This document shows positions 18,224 to 38,749 of a stretch of 64,000 nt of DNA, one piece after another (the first letter of the stretch is position 1; every line of letters begins with the position of its first letter). The position numbers and the translations under genes are program-made. This DNA comes from a phage, in sequence record PZ445488.1; one strand, given 5' to 3'. Below the pieces are notes generated by a model. It was not told where the DNA came from. It saw only the letters and a list, made by a program, of their open reading frames with translations, and searched no databases.

Positions 18224-19225
18224 TTATTTCAGTAAAGTTACTTCAGAGATTTCCTCCCAACCATCTTTATCAGTTGAAATAAAATCTGCTACATAAAGAG
18301 CCGTACGTAATGATACATTGCGAAGACGAGATACGTTAGCCTTCATCCAGGACAATGCTTTGTACGTTTCAGCATCAGTCAAGCCACGTTTCTGCATCAT
18401 GTCAGTAGATAATATTACATCTTCAACTCGAACCATAATCTCTTCATTAGAGTGTACTCCAAGGTCCAAATACACTGAACGAGATACTAAAGCTTGAAGG
18501 TGTGGAGCAAGTTTCGAACCGCGTTCTAACTCTTTATCAATATCAACGTTTGTAATGAAAACGATAGTACCTTCAAACTCAAATTCTTTATCGATACCCT
18601 TATCCTCGAGATAAGATGACGCAGTGCTCCAACAAACTTTGCGTTTATCTCCGGTATCTAATGCTGCTTTAAGAAGGTTCAGGATGTCCATATCTGAGAA
18701 TACGTCAACGTCATCGATTAAGAGAACGCTGTCTTCATCACGGTTGAGCCAAAGTTGTTCGTAAAGGCCAATACCGGAGATTTTACCATTAATGCTTTTG
18801 TATTTGATGAAACCATTATCATTAGCATTATTAAGTGCTTTATCCAGAGAATACGTCTTACCAATACCAGCTGCACCTGAAATAATGAGTGAACGAATTT
18901 TGCCATCAATAATGCCATTCGTCATCATGTTCATTACTTTAAAGCGTTTGTTGATACGAGTTTTCATATCTTCAGTGCTTTCAACAACTGCAACTGGTGA
19001 CGTCTCAACTCCTTCCATTACGATGTCTGATTTGAAGACCCATACTCCACGTTCAGAACCATCAATCATAACGAAAATTTTACCGTCACCTAAGTGGGAA
19101 CATTCAGGATTAAGCTTTGCCGGGAACCATGTCTTTGTGGCAACATAAGAACCAGAGATTTCGTTATTACGATAGATACCTTTTTTGATTTGAACGTTGA
19201 ACATTTTATTCTCCAATTTACTCAT
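18224..19225 (-). CDS. P-loop NTPase (Walker A/B) of unknown function
   Basis: 333 aa; Walker A GAAGIGKT, Walker B-like LLIDDVD. Confidence 0.6.
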   Translation of the reverse strand: MSKLENKMFNVQIKKGIYRNNEISGSYVATKTWFPAKLNPECSHLGDGKIFVMIDGSERGVWVFKSDIVMEGVETSPVAVVESTEDMKTRINKRFKVMNMMTNGIIDGKIRSLIISGAAGIGKTYSLDKALNNANDNGFIKYKSINGKISGIGLYEQLWLNRDEDSVLLIDDVDVFSDMDILNLLKAALDTGDKRKVCWSTASSYLEDKGIDKEFEFEGTIVFITNVDIDKELERGSKLAPHLQALVSRSVYLDLGVHSNEEIMVRVEDVILSTDMMQKRGLTDAETYKALSWMKANVSRLRNVSLRTALYVADFISTDKDGWEEISEVTLLK

Positions 19226-19233
19226 TTCGTTTC

Positions 19234-19271
19234 GATAGGTCTATAGTATCATATCCTAAAAGCATGTACAC
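19234..19271 (-). promoter_or_regulatory. PeSL-like early promoter with stem-loop
   Basis: GATAGGTCTATAGTATCATATCC...GTACA motif upstream of ATPase gene. Confidence 0.45.
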
Positions 19272-19300
19272 TACTTTTTAAAAATATTTTAACCCCCTAA

Positions 19301-19318
19301 GGGGACCCGAAGGTCCCC
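19301..19318 (-). terminator. GGGGACC-UUCG-GGUCCCC hairpin at 3' end of late gene
   Basis: Perfect 7 bp GC stem with UUCG loop 5 nt after stop of 19323..19589; near-identical hairpin at 37209..37224. Confidence 0.45.
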
Positions 19319-19322
19319 ACAT

Positions 19323-19589
19323 TTACTTATCACACTTAGCAACATAATTAGGCATATCACAGAATACAGAGCGAGTAACTACTCGTCCCTTTGACCATGC
19401 TTCAGTTGCTTGTCCGGCCGTGCTATTAATATAGCTTGATTTAATGTTCTCAATACCCTGAGAATGTGATGCATTTACCGAACCGTTAGAAGGCGCAGGA
19501 GCCGGTGGTAACCAGTCTCCTGCGCCCGTGGTAGCACCAACAGAGAATGCCATCATTACTGCGAATAAACCAATTACTAATTTTTTCAT
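19323..19589 (-). CDS. small secreted protein (signal peptide), late-promoter driven
   Basis: 88 aa; N-terminal MKKLVIGLFAVMMAFSVGA signal-like segment; TATAAATA 29 nt upstream. Confidence 0.55.
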   Translation of the reverse strand: MKKLVIGLFAVMMAFSVGATTGAGDWLPPAPAPSNGSVNASHSQGIENIKSSYINSTAGQATEAWSKGRVVTRSVFCDMPNYVAKCDK

Positions 19590-19616: not shown

Positions 19617-20606
19617 CTATTTATAGTAAGAATTATGATTTTCGAGATAGACTTGCTCAAGGAAATCATCCCAGAAACTCATATCTACTTTTTGTTGCAT
19701 ACCATTCTTGGCAGCTTGTTCTGACGCATGTTCAACTTGGTCAACGATATCTTCTAGGAATTCTTGTACAGTTTTAAACGTATGTTTACCAAGCTTAACA
19801 TCGAGAATAAATGGAGCATCTTGAAGTGGGTAAACCAGGTCGCCGGTTTTGTAAATTTCCAATAATTGAAGTCCACCACGACATGCATGACTCAATGCTT
19901 TCCAGTCAATACCTTCGTTAGCTTCTGCCTTACGAGCACGTTCACCATAGTTCTCTTCCAGTTTAACCAGGATGGCATTGAACTCTTTATTGGTTAACGT
20001 GTCTTGGAATTTACGGTCTAACAGATTATAGAATGTTTGCTTACCTGTTTTCTCGTTTTCGGTTTCAACCCACGAAGCAAATTCACCTACAGGCAGAACA
20101 TTCTTCATATGTGATAAACGAATTACTGCACCATTATCAAAGTATTGTCCCCATTCATTAGAACGTTTAAGGGCTTGACGAAGAACAGCCAGTCGAGAAC
20201 CCTTGACACCGTATTTAGAAGCTTGCTTACGGACATACCCTAAATAAGATTTCATGTTAGTGGTATAGAAACGAGACCTGTTATCTTGAATATACTTCCA
20301 TACATCAGGCAAATCAGATTTAACTACTAGACTTGGTGGAGTGTGAAGCATATCTAATGCGACGGTTTCACCATCCGCAGCTAGTTTAAAGAAATATTTG
20401 AGACTATACAACTCATGGTCTACGTCGTCTTTTGTGTTCTTAGAAGATGTGTTATTCGTGTTCTTGCTCATGTGTTCTTTAACGTTACCGGTCAAGATAT
20501 CACGAGCATGAGGGACATAAATTTCTTTAAAATCGACGTCAGATTCAGGAGTAGACGTTCCATAAAGGTGGCTACCAAAGTAGCTTTTCATAATTGTTTT
20601 CATCAT
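19617..20606 (-). CDS. Pol-beta-superfamily nucleotidyltransferase-domain protein
   Basis: 329 aa; N-terminal YFGSHLYGTSTPESDVDF matches the minimal nucleotidyltransferase signature GS-x(10)-D-x-D. Confidence 0.6.
   Translation of the reverse strand: MMKTIMKSYFGSHLYGTSTPESDVDFKEIYVPHARDILTGNVKEHMSKNTNNTSSKNTKDDVDHELYSLKYFFKLAADGETVALDMLHTPPSLVVKSDLPDVWKYIQDNRSRFYTTNMKSYLGYVRKQASKYGVKGSRLAVLRQALKRSNEWGQYFDNGAVIRLSHMKNVLPVGEFASWVETENEKTGKQTFYNLLDRKFQDTLTNKEFNAILVKLEENYGERARKAEANEGIDWKALSHACRGGLQLLEIYKTGDLVYPLQDAPFILDVKLGKHTFKTVQEFLEDIVDQVEHASEQAAKNGMQQKVDMSFWDDFLEQVYLENHNSYYK
19618..19625 (-). promoter_or_regulatory. T4-type late promoter TATAAATA
   Basis: Exact TATAAATA on minus strand upstream of 19323..19589. 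Confidence 0.5.
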
Positions 20607-21076
20607 TTAGCCTTATATTCAAGAGTAGGACAGACTTTTTCTTTACGAGCTTTAAGGTATTCACCTATTAATGATTTCTTACGTTCAATAGGCTCAAGTC
20701 CATTTTTAATTCGTTCTTGGTTTTGCGCAATGAGCTCAATTTCTTTATAATATTTTCTGTCGTTATATTTGTCTAACAACCAAGACGGACCAATTACCAA
20801 CCCGGTAGCAATAAAAGCCATGACTGCTACAATTAAAATGCCTACACCAATTGAGGCTGGAACTAATGTCCATAGACTGCTAAAAACAAAGAATTTAGTT
20901 AAAATTTCCTGGCCAATGATTGTGACTGCTGCTAAAATCGCAAATCCAATAATTGAAACAGCCAATACCGGGATTAACGTTTTCCAAAAATAAGCACATA
21001 ATGTTTTCGGACGATTCCACGTACTATTGAACGCGGCATAAATTTTAAAGTGCCAAGAGTTTTCATTGATAATCAT
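20603..21076 (-). CDS. hypothetical multi-pass membrane protein
   Basis: 157 aa with several hydrophobic helices; 4-nt overlap with nucleotidyltransferase gene. Confidence 0.5.
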   Translation of the reverse strand: MIINENSWHFKIYAAFNSTWNRPKTLCAYFWKTLIPVLAVSIIGFAILAAVTIIGQEILTKFFVFSSLWTLVPASIGVGILIVAVMAFIATGLVIGPSWLLDKYNDRKYYKEIELIAQNQERIKNGLEPIERKKSLIGEYLKARKEKVCPTLEYKAK

Positions 21077-21085
21077 AATAATTCC

Positions 21086-21616
21086 TTATTTCAAAGTCGG
21101 GATAATAGAATCGAGATAAGCTTTAAGAGCAACTGCTTCATCTTTGTCTAATGTAACGATATGTTGACGAAGGTCATCAATTTGGCGAATAACTACGACA
21201 TCACCGTCTTCATAAGAAGGATTAACGCCTAGGACCGTTGTATAGTCAGGGCGGTCCTGATTTGTAATAAAAGCATTACGGCATTTAGCCCATTGAAGTT
21301 TGGCTTTTTTGACTGTTTCAGATTCCATGAATTCTTTCACCTTAGTGACAAATGTTTTCCAATTATTAATAGAAAAACATTTGTCTTCAGTTTCGATATT
21401 AACCCCACTATAAAGTCCGTGATAAAAACGAACTTGAAGGTCTTCATCAATGTTAATTACAGATGCATGGCCGGGTGGATTGAGTTTCAAAATCTTGTCC
21501 AGTTCCATAGGAAGAATAGTAACAGCATCATCTTCTTGTGTCAGAACGTAAGCATAACCACGTTTTTCGATACATAAATCACCAAACAACTCGGTTGTTT
21601 CAATTACAATTTTCAT
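21086..21616 (-). CDS. hypothetical protein
   Basis: Start at ATG 21616 (MKIVIETTEL...); first gene of a tight three-gene unit. Confidence 0.5.
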   Translation of the reverse strand: MKIVIETTELFGDLCIEKRGYAYVLTQEDDAVTILPMELDKILKLNPPGHASVINIDEDLQVRFYHGLYSGVNIETEDKCFSINNWKTFVTKVKEFMESETVKKAKLQWAKCRNAFITNQDRPDYTTVLGVNPSYEDGDVVVIRQIDDLRQHIVTLDKDEAVALKAYLDSIIPTLK

Positions 21617-21617
21617 A

Positions 21618-21797
21618 TTATTCACCAATTAAAGTTTCAACAAAATTCACCAAAGCATTCTGGCACGCATCAACCTGATTTTCATAAAAGTCTCCGTTAT
21701 CATTTACCGCGTGATAAGCTACATCATTCAAATCTGAATCGGCTTCACGTAGGTCACGGATAAGGCCCATCAATTTATTAGCTTGTTCACGGGTCAT
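21618..21797 (-). CDS. hypothetical small protein (59 aa, below ORF-track cutoff)
   Basis: ATG 21797, MTREQANKLMGLIRDLREADSDLNDVAYHAVN..., stop overlaps next start. Confidence 0.3.
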   Translation of the reverse strand: MTREQANKLMGLIRDLREADSDLNDVAYHAVNDNGDFYENQVDACQNALVNFVETLIGE

Positions 21798-21923
21798 TTT
21801 ACCATACTCGTTTCAATAAGATTCACTATGCCGTTTACCATGTTATAAGTAAACATCGGATAATTGTATTGTACTACAACATAAGCGATAAGCAAAAGTT
21901 TCATTTTGTTCTCCGTTCATTTT

Positions 21924-21962
21924 GGTAGGACTACTATAACATAATCCTACCAAGATGTAAAC
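21924..21962 (-). promoter_or_regulatory. PeSL-like early promoter with stem-loop
   Basis: GTAGGACTACTATAACATAATCCTAC...GTAAAC on plus (GTTTAC -35 on minus). Confidence 0.45.
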
Positions 21963-22456: not shown

Positions 22457-22759
22457 TTAGATAGATGTAGGCTCTAATTTTATTTTCATGAACTCAGCAA
22501 ATTGTCTGGCAGTTTTTATGCCTTGTTCATGACATTCAAATGCATCATCACAGGGGCTATTTTTGTAATGCTTTGCCATATACTTATAGAATTTTTCAGA
22601 ATTCTCGACATTTTGAATTTCAAACAAAGTATATACGTTTTTAATCCCTGATTCCATAAAGTTATCAAAATATGGGTCAATATGTGCAGTACCAACGATA
22701 GGAGTTGTTGCTGCAAAAAACCCCAGCATCGCTATGACAGCTATCGCTCTTAAGGCCAT
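22457..22759 (-). CDS. rI: lysis inhibition regulator rI-like membrane protein
   Basis: 100 aa; N-terminal signal-anchor; similar to recalled T4 rI (MALKATALFAMLG...DPHFDKFMESGI...). Confidence 0.75.
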   Translation of the reverse strand: MALRAIAVIAMLGFFAATTPIVGTAHIDPYFDNFMESGIKNVYTLFEIQNVENSEKFYKYMAKHYKNSPCDDAFECHEQGIKTARQFAEFMKIKLEPTSI

Positions 22760-23011: not shown

Positions 23012-23593
23012 TTATAACAACCCTGTCAAATCATTCCAATGCTTCCGGCATAATGACACGTATCTATCGGTATCACCAATTTCAATTTGACTGCCATCTG
23101 TAATTGGAAGTCCGTCTTCCGTGACTCTAGCTACCATTGTGGCCTTTTTACCGCAATGACAGACACCTTTAAGTTCAACAAGCTTATCGGCAATAGCCAT
23201 TAATGCTTGAGAACCTTCAAATAGATTACCTTTAAAATCTGTTCGTAGTCCATATGCCATTACTGGCACATTGTATACGTCAACAATACGACTAAGTTGA
23301 TACACCTTTTCAGTAGTTAAGAACTGAGCTTCGTCAACAAATACACAGTGAATATCCTTTTGTGCTGCAGCCCATTTATAGAATTCAAAGATATCCATGT
23401 CTTTTGTAATTATATTGGCATCCTGACGAATACCAATACGAGAGACTATTTCACCTTTTGAATCACGAGTATCAATAGCCGGTTTAAGAACTAATACACC
23501 CATGCCACGTTCTTTATAGTTATGTGCGGCAGTAAGTAATGAAGCAGACTTACCAGCGTTCATAGCGGCATAGGTAAAAATTAAACTAGCCAT
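23012..23593 (-). CDS. tk: thymidine kinase
   Basis: 193 aa; P-loop NAGKSASL, conserved TK motifs, C-terminal zinc ribbon CHCGKKA...LCRKH. Confidence 0.95.
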   Translation of the reverse strand: MASLIFTYAAMNAGKSASLLTAAHNYKERGMGVLVLKPAIDTRDSKGEIVSRIGIRQDANIITKDMDIFEFYKWAAAQKDIHCVFVDEAQFLTTEKVYQLSRIVDVYNVPVMAYGLRTDFKGNLFEGSQALMAIADKLVELKGVCHCGKKATMVARVTEDGLPITDGSQIEIGDTDRYVSLCRKHWNDLTGLL

Positions 23594-23971: not shown

Positions 23972-24174
23972 GTCACCTTTAAGCAGTATTCTTCTACATG
24001 CTGTTTACGACCTTTCTTATCAATAAAGGTATATTCAACGAATGTTCCGATGTAGTCTTTATCTACATCATGTGGACTATTAATTGGACATTTGGTACGA
24101 CAAATGCGTTCCCATTGACGAATAATTACTGCCTTATTCTTTGGGTCATATGGATGCGGATAATGTATATTCAT
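23962..24174 (-). CDS. hypothetical protein
   Basis: Track start is TTG; in-frame ATG at 24174. Confidence 0.4.
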   Translation of the reverse strand: MNIHYPHPYDPKNKAVIIRQWERICRTKCPINSPHDVDKDYIGTFVEYTFIDKKGRKQHVEEYCLKVTWL

Positions 24175-24638
24175 AATAATGGTTCCCAATCAACAATCAC
24201 AATTTCTAGTTTAGTGGAATACGTATCTAAAATCTCTTCGATGACATCCCAGTTTCCACCACCTATACCTGCACCAATTCTTGGCATATAAATTACAGGC
24301 TTTGCTATCTTATTCTTTCCGAATTTATTTAATTCTATTATACAATTCATTAAAGCAGAGTACTCAAAATTAGGTCCCGGCTCAAACTGCGTATAAAGAT
24401 TAAAGCAATAAGCTTTATGGGTCTTGAAATATTTTTCATAAACCGAATAGGAACCGAGTTTAGTCTCATCGCCGAATTCGGTTTGGAGCTTATCGGCTTC
24501 TAAAATCTTTGGAAAGGCCTTCGCTAATTGCCCGGCTACTCCTGCGCCCATTGTATGGAAACAGTTACAACCATGAGCAACATTTTTACCTTCAGAAAAC
24601 AGGGCGACAATATCGCCCTTGATATAGTTTTTAATCAC
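24171..24638 (-). CDS. TARG1/OARD1-like macrodomain protein (putative ADP-ribosyl hydrolase); apparent GTG start
   Basis: 155 aa; YIKGDIVALFSEGKNVAHGCNCFHTMGAGVAG and MPRIGAGIGGGNWDVIEEIL align with TARG1 motifs (KGDLF...AHC...MGAGIA; MPRIGCG...W..V..IEE). Confidence 0.7.
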   Translation of the reverse strand: MIKNYIKGDIVALFSEGKNVAHGCNCFHTMGAGVAGQLAKAFPKILEADKLQTEFGDETKLGSYSVYEKYFKTHKAYCFNLYTQFEPGPNFEYSALMNCIIELNKFGKNKIAKPVIYMPRIGAGIGGGNWDVIEEILDTYSTKLEIVIVDWEPLL

Positions 24639-38594: not shown

Positions 38595-38671
<77 letters not shown>

Positions 38672-38674
38672 AAT

Positions 38675-38749
38675 TGGTGACCCTGGCTGGTTTCGATCCA
38701 GCTACCTATCAGTTATGAGCTGACAGCTCTCCCATTGAGCTACAGGGCC
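38675..38749 (-). tRNA. tRNA with CAU anticodon (Ile2-type as in T4, or Met), CCA encoded
   Basis: Minus strand GGCCCTG-TA-GCTCAATGGGAGAGC-T-GTCAG-CTCATAA-CTGAT-..-GCTGG-ATCGAAA-CCAGC-CAGGGTC-A-CCA; manual cloverleaf. Confidence 0.75.

What the first reader, a model, noticed from the sequence alone, without database searches (positions are those of the whole stretch)
19617..21616. Three-gene cassette: nucleotidyltransferase-domain protein, multi-pass membrane protein and upstream partner
ORF 19617..20606 starts with a textbook minimal nucleotidyltransferase signature (FGSHLYGTSTPESDVDF = GS-x10-D-x-D) followed by ~280 aa of unassigned sequence. It is translationally coupled (4-nt overlap) to a membrane protein (20603..21076) and preceded by 21086..21616. 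Such Pol-beta-fold enzymes occur in toxin-antitoxin/Abi modules and nucleotide-signalling systems; in a phage this could be an anti-defence enzyme or a superinfection-exclusion module. By position these may be counterparts of late T4 nrdC.x genes, whose functions I cannot confirm.
Basis: partly seen in the sequence, partly recalled or inferred. Interest (0 to 1): 0.6.

Follow-up and report, generated by a model that had tools for sequence, protein, structure and literature searches.

The report
T4 NrdC.11-type RNA-repair nucleotidyltransferase, not a cassette

Summary
The window is Escherichia phage CEV1, a T4-like Mosigvirus. All three ORFs, the GS-x10-DxD motif and the 4-nt ATGA overlap are real and lie on the minus strand.

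The 329-aa protein is the ortholog (78% identity) of T4 NrdC.11. It matches Pfam RlaP (PF10127) above threshold. A 2025 preprint that characterises RlaP enzymes as adding 1-2 NMP to RNA 3'-OH ends names T4 NrdC.11 as a member. Its nucleotidyltransferase nature was noted in 2006.

New supporting evidence found here: full-length NrdC.11-type relatives in bacteria sit in RNA-repair operons (Pnkp/Hen1, RtcB/RtcA, Ro60). In 35 of 80 loci they lie immediately upstream of a canonical RlaP.

The "cassette" is not a unit:
- Among 79 diverse viral loci with the NTase, the membrane protein is nearby in 43 and mobD.1 in 15.
- T4 has the homing endonuclease mobD in place of the membrane gene.
- The membrane family also occurs in phage ICP1.
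- 38% of adjacent gene pairs in this window overlap.

Most likely role: a gap-filling step in T4-type tRNA repair (Pnkp, then NrdC.11, then Rnl1). This role is inferred, not shown. The finding is ordinary and already classified, so interest is low to moderate.

The parts
19617..20606 (-). NrdC.11 ortholog: a 329-aa RlaP-family (PF10127) Pol-beta nucleotidyltransferase
   Evidence: ORF. 78% identical to T4 nrdC.11. Pfam RlaP E=6.3e-13 and phrog_388 'nucleotidyltransferase' E=2.6e-126. AF2 model pLDDT 94, pTM 0.83.
20193..20597 (-). NTase catalytic domain (aa 4-138), the part matched by the RlaP profile
   Evidence: Pfam match aa 4-138 to profile positions 20-145 of 249. hhalign against 20 canonical RlaPs aligns aa 3-132, E=3.8e-5.
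20532..20576 (-). GS-x10-D-x-D motif (G11 S12 ... D23 x D25)
   Evidence: Translation. G11/S12 present in 120 of 121 and D23/D25 in 121 of 121 homologs.
20424..20426 (-). D61, the likely third catalytic carboxylate. D85 (nt 20352-20354) is always D or E.
   Evidence: D61 is invariant in 121 of 121 sequences. It aligns with the invariant Asp of the canonical RlaP 'lDlnGWD' stretch, and D85 aligns with the invariant Glu.
19920..20192 (-). Subfamily-specific middle region (aa 139-229): the end of a long helix, a small beta-sheet subdomain and two helices. No Pfam or hhalign match.
   Evidence: DSSP on the model: H119-155, E177-184, E188-195, E198-201, H206-219, H222-229. No Pfam hit for the C-terminal fragments.
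19878..19901 (-). Invariant helix motif K236-x3-H240-A-x-R243 (KALSHACR) in the C-terminal helical domain
   Evidence: K236, H240, A241 and R243 are invariant in 121 of 121 sequences. Canonical RlaP has an invariant K-x3-Y-x2-R with the same spacing. The equivalence is inferred, not aligned.
20603..21076 (-). 157-aa two-helix membrane protein (phrog_944): a variably present syntenic neighbour, not shown to be functionally linked
   Evidence: Family signature NSWH..SLCxYFWK ... KAxKxKxCPxIEF with invariant C27 and C149. No PDB fold match.
21086..21616 (-). T4 mobD.1/y05I ortholog, 176 aa (Pfam 'putative transcription factor' N- and C-terminal domains)
   Evidence: PF24449 E=2.2e-41 and PF24448 E=1.5e-19. 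45% identical to T4 mobD.1.
21618..21797 (-). 59-aa DUF7438 protein, upstream member of the same apparent transcription unit
   Evidence: PF24219 E=1.8e-14. Its stop codon lies 1 nt before the mobD.1 start.
21794..21904 (-). 36-aa ORF with an ATGA overlap onto the DUF7438 gene
   Evidence: Translation. Annotated in the relative NC_041863.
21933..21961 (-). Sigma-70 / T4-early-type promoter-like site (TTTACA, 17 nt, TG-extended TATAGT) upstream of the unit
   Evidence: This is a consensus match only; function is inferred.
19323..19589 (-). 88-aa signal-peptide protein (phrog_2243), the last gene before the hairpin. TATAAATA (19618-19625) lies just upstream.
19291..19318 (-). GC-rich UUCG-loop hairpin (GGGGACCTTCGGGTCCCC) followed by a T-rich tract: the likely 3' end of the unit, separating it from nrdC.10

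Best explanation
ORF 19617..20606(-) is the CEV1 ortholog of phage T4 nrdC.11. It belongs to a divergent but very widespread subfamily of the RlaP (PF10127) Pol-beta nucleotidyltransferases. By analogy with the two characterised RlaP enzymes, it most likely uses NTPs and a divalent metal (Mn2+ was preferred by those enzymes) to add one or two nucleotides, without a template, to the 3'-OH of broken RNA, above all the 5' half of a cleaved tRNA. In a T4-type phage this would be a gap-filling step between end-healing by Pnkp (which creates the 3'-OH and 5'-P) and sealing by RNA ligase 1. It would let the phage restore tRNAs from which a host anticodon nuclease has removed nucleotides as well as cut (RloC-type 'smart' ribotoxins). 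What is shown: orthology, family membership, conservation of the catalytic residues, and the RNA-repair genomic context of bacterial relatives. What is inferred: the enzymatic activity of this subfamily, tRNA as its substrate, and cooperation with Pnkp and Rnl1. The two upstream genes (the mobD.1/y05I homolog and a small two-helix membrane protein) are co-transcribed early-region neighbours kept together by T4-like synteny. They are not components of a three-gene module.
For: Orthology and family: 100% match to phage CEV1; 78% identity to T4 nrdC.11 at the syntenic position tk-rI-...-mobD.1-[X]-nrdC.11-nrdC.10; Pfam RlaP at 49.4 bits against a 23-bit cut-off; PF10127 precomputed on nearly all homologs; the RlaP preprint places T4 NrdC.11 in PF10127 SSN cluster 5; COG3541 NTase match noted in 2006. 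Active enzyme: G11, S12, D23, D25 and D61 invariant or nearly so, and D85 always acidic, across 121 homologs of 24-55% identity. Family chemistry: RlaP adds 1-2 NMP to RNA 3'-OH, prefers the 5' tRNA half, does not act on DNA or protein, and its product is compatible with 5'-P ligases such as those of the T4 type. Context independent of phage synteny: 121 full-length relatives were found in bacterial and archaeal genome assemblies. A canonical full-length RlaP lies immediately downstream in 35 of 80 loci, Pnkp occurs in 9, Hen1 in 8, RtcB in 9, RtcA in 2 and Ro60/TROVE in 2, and 49 of 80 loci hold at least one of the RNA-repair-linked query genes, canonical RlaP included. Example operons are Hen1-Pnkp-NTase-RlaP-RNA ligase (L154) and RtcB-RtcA-NTase-RlaP-Hen1 (L102). 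Phage-side hints: genus counts of NTase, Rnl1 and Pnkp are almost identical across T4-like phages; a close relative of this window (EP32a) carries Rnl1; the NTase sits beside a tRNA cluster in Rhodobacter phage RcXuper; one viral contig has an Rnl1-like gene 3.5 kb upstream. Not a cassette.
Against: No NrdC.11-type enzyme has been assayed; the biochemistry comes from cluster-1a Pseudomonas RlaPs, which share only the N-terminal ~130 aa detectably (hhalign probability 70.7%). Residues 139-329 have no sequence-level match to canonical RlaP, and the PfRlaP structure is not in the PDB copy searched, so fold equivalence of the C-terminal domain is untested. In T4-like phages the gene is not adjacent to pseT or rnlA, which lie ~80 kb away in T4, and neither gene is in this window. 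The co-distribution with Pnkp and Rnl1 is confounded by shared ancestry. In bacteria the enzyme usually comes paired with a canonical RlaP, which the T-even-type phages appear to lack (no Escherichia, Shigella or Enterobacteria phage among the 80 records), so its solo activity could differ. T4 nrdC.11-mobD.3 can be deleted without loss of viability. That fits an accessory role but gives no positive evidence.
Confidence: 0.55

Rival explanations
1. Hailong-like two-gene module. The NTase would make an oligonucleotide (as HalB makes oligo-dA) that gates the adjacent membrane protein (as HalA), giving the phage a superinfection-exclusion or lysis-control switch, or a decoy against host Hailong.
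Confidence: 0.04
2. Host-directed (toxin-like) tRNA tailing. The NTase would add nucleotides to the 3' ends of intact host tRNAs or other RNAs, as MenT/AbiEii toxins do, to remodel or shut down host translation.
For: RlaP labelled full-length tRNAs and rRNAs in total E. coli RNA in vitro. It has the same superfamily fold as AbiEii/MenT-type enzymes. One bacterial locus (L126) has an AbiEii gene next to the pair.
Against: The phage needs host tRNAs. There is no match to AbiEii, MenT or MntA models. The bacterial context is overwhelmingly repair enzymes (ligases, Pnkp, Hen1, RtcA/B), not toxin-antitoxin pairs. RlaP prefers the damaged 5' half over the acceptor end.
Confidence: 0.1
3. tRNA maturation. 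The NTase would complete or repair the 3' CCA ends of phage-encoded or host tRNAs, acting as a phage CCA-adding or CCA-repair enzyme.
For: The NTase is adjacent to a tRNA gene cluster in phage RcXuper. HD/PolyA_pol_RNAbd (CCA-enzyme-like) genes are neighbours in 3 bacterial loci. This window carries tRNA-Arg and tRNA-Met genes.
Against: There is no match to the CCA-adding enzyme family in Pfam. RlaP shows little NTP specificity and stops after 1-2 nt. From established knowledge (my recollection, not checked here), maturation of some T4 tRNAs depends on the host cca enzyme, so T4 does not supply this function itself.
Confidence: 0.08
4. The trio, or the membrane-NTase pair, is a functional unit of some other kind, for example a membrane-anchored NTase complex regulated by the mobD.1 putative transcription factor.
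For: Where the membrane gene is present it is upstream and on the same strand in 42 of 43 loci, and it abuts the NTase in about 15. All three genes lie in one apparent early transcription unit between a promoter-like site and a hairpin.
Against: T4-like genomes are broadly collinear, so conserved order is weak evidence. The three phyletic ranges differ. Bacterial relatives of the NTase have no recurrent membrane or y05I-like neighbour among the clustered neighbours. Homing endonuclease insertion or replacement at the junction is tolerated. Overlaps are generic in this genome.
Confidence: 0.1
5. The NTase modifies a non-RNA substrate, either a small molecule (as KNTase/ANT or LinB do) or a protein (as the MntA antitoxin or GlnE do).
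Against: These are weak fold-level hits (TM 0.25-0.35, 8-11% identity). The sequence family is RlaP, which did not modify proteins or DNA. The genomic context of relatives is RNA repair.
Confidence: 0.06

Closest known systems
Phage T4 NrdC.11 (NP_049709), annotated 'nucleotidyltransferase'
   Same: Ortholog: 78% identity over the full length, with the same position between mobD.1 and nrdC.10 downstream of tk and rI. Conserved in 1543 phage records.
   Different: In T4 the HNH homing endonuclease mobD lies immediately upstream. In CEV1 and many other T4-like phages a 150-160-aa membrane protein lies there instead.
RlaP family (Pfam PF10127): Pseudomonas fluorescens and P. aeruginosa RlaP (bioRxiv 10.64898/2025.12.29.696909)
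   Same: Pol-beta NTase domain with GS, DxD and a third Asp; a helical C-terminal domain; a Pfam match above threshold; relatives embedded in RtcB/RtcA and Pnkp/Hen1 RNA-repair operons.
   Different: It is a separate subfamily (SSN cluster 5 against 1a). About 60-80 aa longer, with a long helix plus a small beta-sheet insertion (aa ~139-229). Its C-terminal motif is K-x3-H-x2-R rather than K-x3-Y-x2-R. Only aa 3-132 align by profile. In bacteria it usually sits in tandem with a canonical RlaP rather than replacing it. Its activity is untested.
T4 tRNA repair pathway (Pnkp/pseT plus RNA ligase 1/rnlA) countering the anticodon nuclease PrrC
   Same: Proposed to act in the same pathway. An RlaP product (3'-OH) suits a 5'-P/3'-OH ligase. 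The genes co-distribute across T4-like phages.
   Different: It is not genetically linked to pseT or rnlA in the phage. No genetic or biochemical evidence yet ties nrdC.11 to repair.
Hailong HalB (PDB 9dbh), a defence NTase paired with the membrane channel HalA
   Different: There is no detectable sequence similarity. The membrane partner is not HalA-like. The pairing is not obligate. HalB is 217 aa and Tyr-primed; nothing here indicates protein priming.
Kanamycin nucleotidyltransferase / ANT(4') and MNT-HEPN type minimal NTases
   Same: A minimal NTase domain followed by a helical, HEPN-like bundle.
   Different: Weak fold-level similarity only (Foldseek E>=3e-3, TM<=0.35). There is no family-level sequence match.

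Membership tests
RlaP (Pfam PF10127) | Sequence match to the family profile above the curated threshold | tested here: met
   49.4 bits against a 23-bit cut-off, E=6.3e-13, although only profile positions 20-145 of 249 are matched. PF10127 is precomputed for nearly all homologs. T4 NrdC.11 is placed in the family's SSN by the preprint.
RlaP (Pfam PF10127) | Pol-beta catalytic signature: GS, DxD and a third conserved Asp | tested here: met
   G11/S12 in 120 of 121 sequences; D23, D25 and D61 in 121 of 121; D85 always D or E. hhalign pairs these with the invariant residues of canonical RlaP.
RlaP (Pfam PF10127) | C-terminal helical domain forming a cleft with the NTase domain, with the last helix packing back on the NTase domain (PfRlaP crystal structure) | tested here: inconclusive
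   The AF2 model (pLDDT 94) has a helical C-terminal region ending in a long terminal helix, H309-328. The only link is the shared K-x3-[H/Y]-x2-R motif.
RlaP (Pfam PF10127) | Genomic association with RNA ligases and RNA-repair genes | tested here: met
   Not met in the phage itself. Met for bacterial members of the same subfamily: Pnkp 9, Hen1 8, RtcB 9, RtcA 2, TROVE 2 and canonical RlaP 37 of 80 loci.
RlaP (Pfam PF10127) | Adds 1-2 NMP to an RNA 3'-OH, prefers Mn2+, does not act on DNA or protein | not testable with these tools
   Biochemistry is known only for PfRlaP and PaRlaP.
Hailong (HalA/HalB) | HalA-type membrane channel effector with a cytoplasmic crown | tested here: not met
   157-aa two-helix hairpin. 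The Foldseek search of the PDB gave a best E of 3.2 and no HalA hit. No PDB sequence hit.
Hailong (HalA/HalB) | Obligate two-gene operon | tested here: not met
   The NTase has no membrane gene within 5 kb in 36 of 79 loci, nor in the T4 region examined. mobD or other genes are inserted between the two in many phages. The membrane family is present in ICP1.
Hailong (HalA/HalB) | HalB-type NTase that synthesises Tyr-primed oligo-dA | tested here: inconclusive
Toxin-antitoxin / Abi NTases (AbiEii, MenT, MntA-HepT) | Match to the family models and a cognate partner gene | tested here: not met
   NCBIfam MntA 13.1 bits against a 60-bit cut-off. No AbiEii hit in Pfam. PADLOC gave no hits. There is no HEPN or AbiEi neighbour in the window.
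CD-NTase / CBASS-type signalling enzymes | Match to CD-NTase models and an adjacent effector | tested here: not met
   No PADLOC or Pfam hit. No cGAS/CD-NTase among the listed top structural matches.
T4 mobD.1 / y05I family (for ORF 21086..21616) | Both y05I N- and C-terminal Pfam domains, at the syntenic position | tested here: met
   PF24449 E=2.2e-41 and PF24448 E=1.5e-19. 45% identity to T4 mobD.1.

The most novel reading that the evidence does not exclude
NrdC.11-type enzymes would be a distinct second RlaP paralogue. In bacteria this paralogue would work side by side with a canonical RlaP inside Pnkp/Hen1 and RtcAB operons. In T4-like phages, acting alone, it would be the missing third, gap-filling enzyme of the classic T4 tRNA-repair pathway, letting the phage defeat anticodon nucleases that excise nucleotides (RloC-type) and were thought to be repair-proof.
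Probability: 0.35. Interest if true: 0.6.

Novelty: already known. Interest (0 to 1): 0.3.

Why it matters
If NrdC.11 does patch nucleotide-excised tRNAs, the textbook two-enzyme T4 tRNA repair pathway (Pnkp plus Rnl1) would gain a third step. It would also explain how T4-like phages could escape RloC-type nucleases that evolved to defeat simple religation. The gene is present in about 1,500 sequenced T4-like phages and in about 2,000 sequence clusters (50% identity) overall. As a scan finding, however, it is an already named, already annotated family member. The proposed three-gene module, which was the reason for flagging it, does not hold up.

Tried and rejected
1. Sequence search of the NTase, and of its 121-sequence profile, against PDB sequences found nothing meaningful. 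The PfRlaP crystal structure appears not to be released, so a direct structural membership test was impossible.
2. Pfam scans of the C-terminal fragments (aa 123-329 and 196-329) found nothing.
3. hhalign against canonical RlaP aligns only the N-terminal domain.
4. PADLOC and NCBIfam gave no defence or TA assignment for any of the five proteins tested.
6. tRNA adjacency as a general feature was rejected: only 2 of the 87 loci fetched by that point have a tRNA within the flanks.
7. A co-occurring canonical RlaP in T4-like phages was looked for and not found: none in the window, and no Escherichia, Shigella or Enterobacteria phage record among the 80 hits.
8. The late-promoter motif TATAAATA at the NTase stop is not enriched in the window (9 found, 8.6 expected), so it is weak evidence.
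9. The generic promoter scan found no excess of sites over shuffles (22 against 24.2). Only the site at 21961-21933 looks convincing on inspection.
10. The Burroughs & Aravind 2016 paper and the Hailong primary paper were not available, so I could not check whether the tandem RlaP arrangement had been noted before.
Full report
**Identity of the window and check of the observation**

The 3-kb stretch around the finding is 100% identical to Escherichia phage CEV1. It is 97-98% identical to Mosigvirus (RB69-like) T4-type phages such as E. coli O157 typing phage 3. All genes from about 16 to 24.6 kb are on the minus strand.

The three ORFs exist exactly as described:
- 19617..20606 encodes 329 aa.
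- 20603..21076 encodes 157 aa.
- 21086..21616 encodes 176 aa.

All three start with ATG. The first two share the 4-nt ATGA overlap. Residues 10-26 of the 329-aa protein read FGSHLYGTSTPESDVDF.

Two qualifications apply. The overlap is not distinctive, because 37 of 97 adjacent same-strand ORF pairs in this window overlap, 17 of them by 4 nt. The "unassigned" part of the protein is also smaller than stated, because the Pfam match runs to residue 138.

**What the three genes are**

The T4 reference annotation gives the gene order tk - rI.1 - rI - ... - mobD.1 - mobD - nrdC.11 - nrdC.10. The window has tk (23012..23593), rI (22457..22759), then the finding, then an nrdC.10 ortholog (18224..19225).

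- **The 329-aa protein** is 78% identical to T4 NrdC.11.
- **The 176-aa protein** is 45% identical to T4 MobD.1/y05I. It carries both y05I Pfam domains, which Pfam describes as a "putative transcription factor".
- **The 157-aa membrane protein** (phrog_944) has no homolog in the T4 region examined (46-61 kb). At that position T4 has the free-standing HNH homing endonuclease mobD, documented as inserted at the nrdC.11/mobD.1 junction.

**The nucleotidyltransferase belongs to a named family**

It matches Pfam PF10127, RlaP ("RNA repair pathway DNA polymerase beta family"), at 49.4 bits against a 23-bit cut-off. It also matches phrog_388, annotated "nucleotidyltransferase". RefSeq already annotates near-identical proteins as nucleotidyltransferase. 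A COG3541 NTase match for nrdC.11 orthologs was reported in 2006.

A December 2025 preprint (Carruthers, Fatma and Huang, bioRxiv 10.64898/2025.12.29.696909) characterised two Pseudomonas RlaPs. It reports that:
- They add one or two NMPs, from any NTP and also from dATP, to the 3'-OH of RNA.
- They prefer Mn2+.
- They prefer the 5' half of a cleaved tRNA.
- They do not modify DNA or protein.
- Their structure is an N-terminal NTase domain plus a C-terminal helical domain.

The authors propose RlaP as the antidote to "smart" ribotoxins such as RloC, which cut a tRNA and then remove nucleotides. They explicitly place T4 NrdC.11 in the family (SSN cluster 5) as a protein of unknown function.

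**Tests of membership done here**

I assembled 120 diverse homologs of 24-55% identity. G11 and S12 are present in 120 of 121 sequences. D23, D25 and D61 are invariant in all 121. D85 is always Asp or Glu.

A profile-profile comparison with 20 canonical RlaPs aligns residues 3-132 (E=3.8e-5, probability 70.7%). It pairs D61 and D85 with invariant acidic residues of canonical RlaP.

Residues 139-329 do not align by sequence methods. Both groups do have an invariant K-x3-[H/Y]-x2-R helix motif, which here is K236, H240 and R243.

An AlphaFold2 model is confident, with pLDDT 94 and pTM 0.83. It shows the NTase domain, a long helix, a small beta-sheet insertion and a helical C-terminal region.

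The PfRlaP structure is not in the PDB copy searched. Structural neighbours are therefore only generic minimal NTases with helical or HEPN-like domains:
- By Foldseek: KNTase/ANT(4') at E of about 3e-3.

Family membership is solid for the catalytic domain and plausible, but untested, for the C-terminal part.

**Independent evidence for an RNA-repair role**

A scan of one genome per prokaryotic species with the subfamily-specific motif DWK..HAxR found 121 full-length relatives of 31-52% identity. They occur in assemblies assigned to Alphaproteobacteria, Desulfobacterota, Nitrospirota, Chlamydiota and some archaea, among others. Some lie on megabase contigs.

In 35 of the 80 fetched loci, a canonical full-length RlaP lies immediately downstream on the same strand. 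One example, L154, scores PF10127 E=7e-67.

Other recurrent neighbours, verified with Pfam on representatives, are:
- Pnkp (kinase-phosphatase-ligase) in 9 loci
- Hen1 in 8 loci
- RtcB in 9 loci
- RtcA in 2 loci
- Ro60/TROVE in 2 loci
- HD/CCA-enzyme-like proteins in 3 loci

Example operons are Hen1-Pnkp-NTase-RlaP-RNA ligase (L154) and RtcB-RtcA-NTase-RlaP-Hen1 (L102). Overall, 49 of 80 loci have at least one of these RNA-repair-linked genes, counting the canonical RlaP.

This ties the NrdC.11-type subfamily itself to RNA repair, not just PF10127 in general, and it is independent of T4-like synteny. The subfamily is large, with 1,987 clusters (50% identity) at E<=1e-30.

**Phage-side evidence is weaker**

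- NTase, Rnl1 and Pnkp have almost identical genus-level counts among T4-like phages, but that is expected from shared ancestry.
- The genes are not adjacent in T4, and neither repair gene is in this window.
- No Escherichia, Shigella or Enterobacteria phage record carries the canonical RlaP, and the window has none.
- The NTase sits beside a tRNA cluster in Rhodobacter phage RcXuper, and 3.5 kb from an Rnl1-like gene in one viral contig.
- T4 tolerates deletion of nrdC.11-mobD.3, which fits an accessory gene.

**The "cassette" does not hold**

The three genes have different phyletic ranges: 1543, 1211 and 729 phage records for the NTase, the membrane protein and MobD.1 respectively.

In 79 diverse IMG/VR loci that encode the NTase:
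- A membrane-protein homolog lies within 5 kb in 43, and abuts the NTase in about 15.
- MobD.1 is present in 15.
- nrdC.10 is present in 36.
- The 88-aa downstream gene is present in 2.

Where the membrane gene is present but not abutting, 0.35-1.8 kb of other genes intervene. In L017 a mobD endonuclease sits between the membrane gene and the NTase. In loci without the membrane gene, the upstream neighbour is usually an unrelated soluble protein. The membrane family also occurs in Vibrio phage ICP1. Bacterial relatives show no recurrent membrane or y05I-like neighbour.

In the window, the genes appear to belong to a longer early transcription unit:
- a promoter-like site at 21961-21933
- a 36-aa ORF
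- the DUF7438 gene
- mobD.1
- the membrane gene
- the NTase
- the 88-aa signal-peptide gene
- a GC-rich UUCG hairpin at 19318-19291

A MotA-box-like sequence follows the hairpin, ahead of nrdC.10. These regulatory assignments are consensus matches only.

**The Hailong rival**

The 157-aa protein models as a two-helix transmembrane hairpin with short N- and C-terminal elements (pLDDT 79.5). It has no PDB match better than E=3.2, and HalA is not among the hits. Pairing is not obligate (above). The NTase has no sequence similarity to HalB. I rate this reading at about 4%.

**Most likely mechanism**

I propose three steps:
1. Pnkp heals the ends of a host-nuclease-cleaved tRNA, producing a 3'-OH and a 5'-P.
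2. [quoted passage not shown]
3. Rnl1 seals the break.

Because addition is untemplated, only a fraction of the products would be correct, as the preprint argues for bacterial RlaP.

What is shown: orthology, family membership, catalytic conservation, and the RNA-repair context of relatives. What is inferred: the activity of this subfamily, its substrate, its partners, and the identity of the host nucleases countered.

**Verdict**

This is a correctly spotted enzyme signature in a gene that is already named, annotated and assigned to a family with a recently described activity. The three-gene module that motivated the flag is a product of T4-like gene order and of the routinely overlapping genes in this genome. 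The residual interest lies in two things: the untested phage role of NrdC.11, and the tandem pairing of NrdC.11-type and canonical RlaP genes in bacterial repair operons.

Noticed in passing
Loci L088-L167 (bacterial and archaeal genome contigs), e.g. L154:6001-7802 and L102:6001-7746: In bacteria the NrdC.11-type NTase gene is immediately followed, often with an overlap, by a canonical full-length RlaP gene in 35 of 80 loci. The pair often sits inside Pnkp/Hen1 or RtcB/RtcA operons. This tandem of two RlaP paralogues is not mentioned in the 2025 RlaP preprint, and it suggests a two-enzyme or heterodimeric arrangement. I could not check the 2016 Burroughs & Aravind paper.
   Followed up: partly
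window 20603-21076 (-), and homologs in L009-L083: The 150-160-aa membrane-protein family has an invariant signature: N-terminal S7-W8-H9, then L26-C27-x-Y29 before the first TM helix, and a C-terminal K-x-C149-P motif. The AF2 model pairs a short N-terminal strand with a C-terminal strand, so H9, C27 and C149 might form a cytoplasmic metal or redox site. Its function is unknown. It is also present in Vibrio phage ICP1.
   Followed up: partly
window 19323-19589 (-), with 19618-19625 and 19291-19318: An 88-aa signal-peptide protein (phrog_2243) is present in only 2 of 79 NTase loci. It is preceded by a T4 late-promoter-like TATAAATA that overlaps the NTase stop codon, and followed by a strong UUCG-loop hairpin. 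It may be a lineage-specific secreted or periplasmic protein expressed late as well as early. The motif count in the window is no higher than chance.
   Followed up: partly
window 18224-19225 (-), with ~19255-19270: The nrdC.10 ortholog is a 333-aa AAA/STAND-like P-loop protein with only sub-threshold Pfam matches. It lies downstream of the NTase in 36 of 79 viral loci, and appears to have its own MotA-box-like middle promoter (ATGCTTTTA ... TATAGA) after the hairpin. One bacterial RNA-repair operon (L102) also has an AAA_5 ATPase nearby.
   Followed up: no
L007 (Rhodobacter phage RcXuper) 3501-7819: The NTase homolog (28% identity) lies directly upstream of a cluster of five tRNA genes in a non-T4-like phage.
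   Followed up: no
GenBank records listed: Name-derived misannotations are widespread. NrdC.11 and its neighbours are labelled 'thioredoxin' (from the locus name nrdC.x). MobD.1 and MobD.4 are labelled 'molybdopterin-guanine dinucleotide biosynthesis protein MobD'. The 59-aa DUF7438 protein is labelled 'helicase loader'.
   Followed up: no
L017:4240-4995, and T4 L002:10430-11209: The homing endonuclease mobD is found in two states: inserted between the membrane gene and nrdC.11 (L017), and occupying that position with no membrane-gene homolog in the region examined (T4). These may be snapshots of endonuclease invasion followed by loss of the neighbouring gene.
   Followed up: partly
L126:4892-5911: An AbiEii-type NTase toxin gene lies immediately upstream of an NrdC.11-type/RlaP pair in a Thermodesulfobacteriota genome. 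In L146 a Fic-domain gene lies two genes downstream of the NrdC.11-type gene, directly after a shorter (188-aa) RlaP-like ORF. Both suggest conflict-system neighbourhoods.
   Followed up: no
window 38595-38749 (-): There are two phage tRNA genes, tRNA-Arg(TCT) and tRNA-Met(CAT), about 18 kb from the NTase.
   Followed up: no
window 24171-24638 (-): This 155-aa ORF corresponds by position to T4 tk.4, which is annotated as an A1pp/macro-domain phosphatase in T4 and its relatives. It is another RNA- or ADP-ribose-related accessory gene in the same early region.
   Followed up: no
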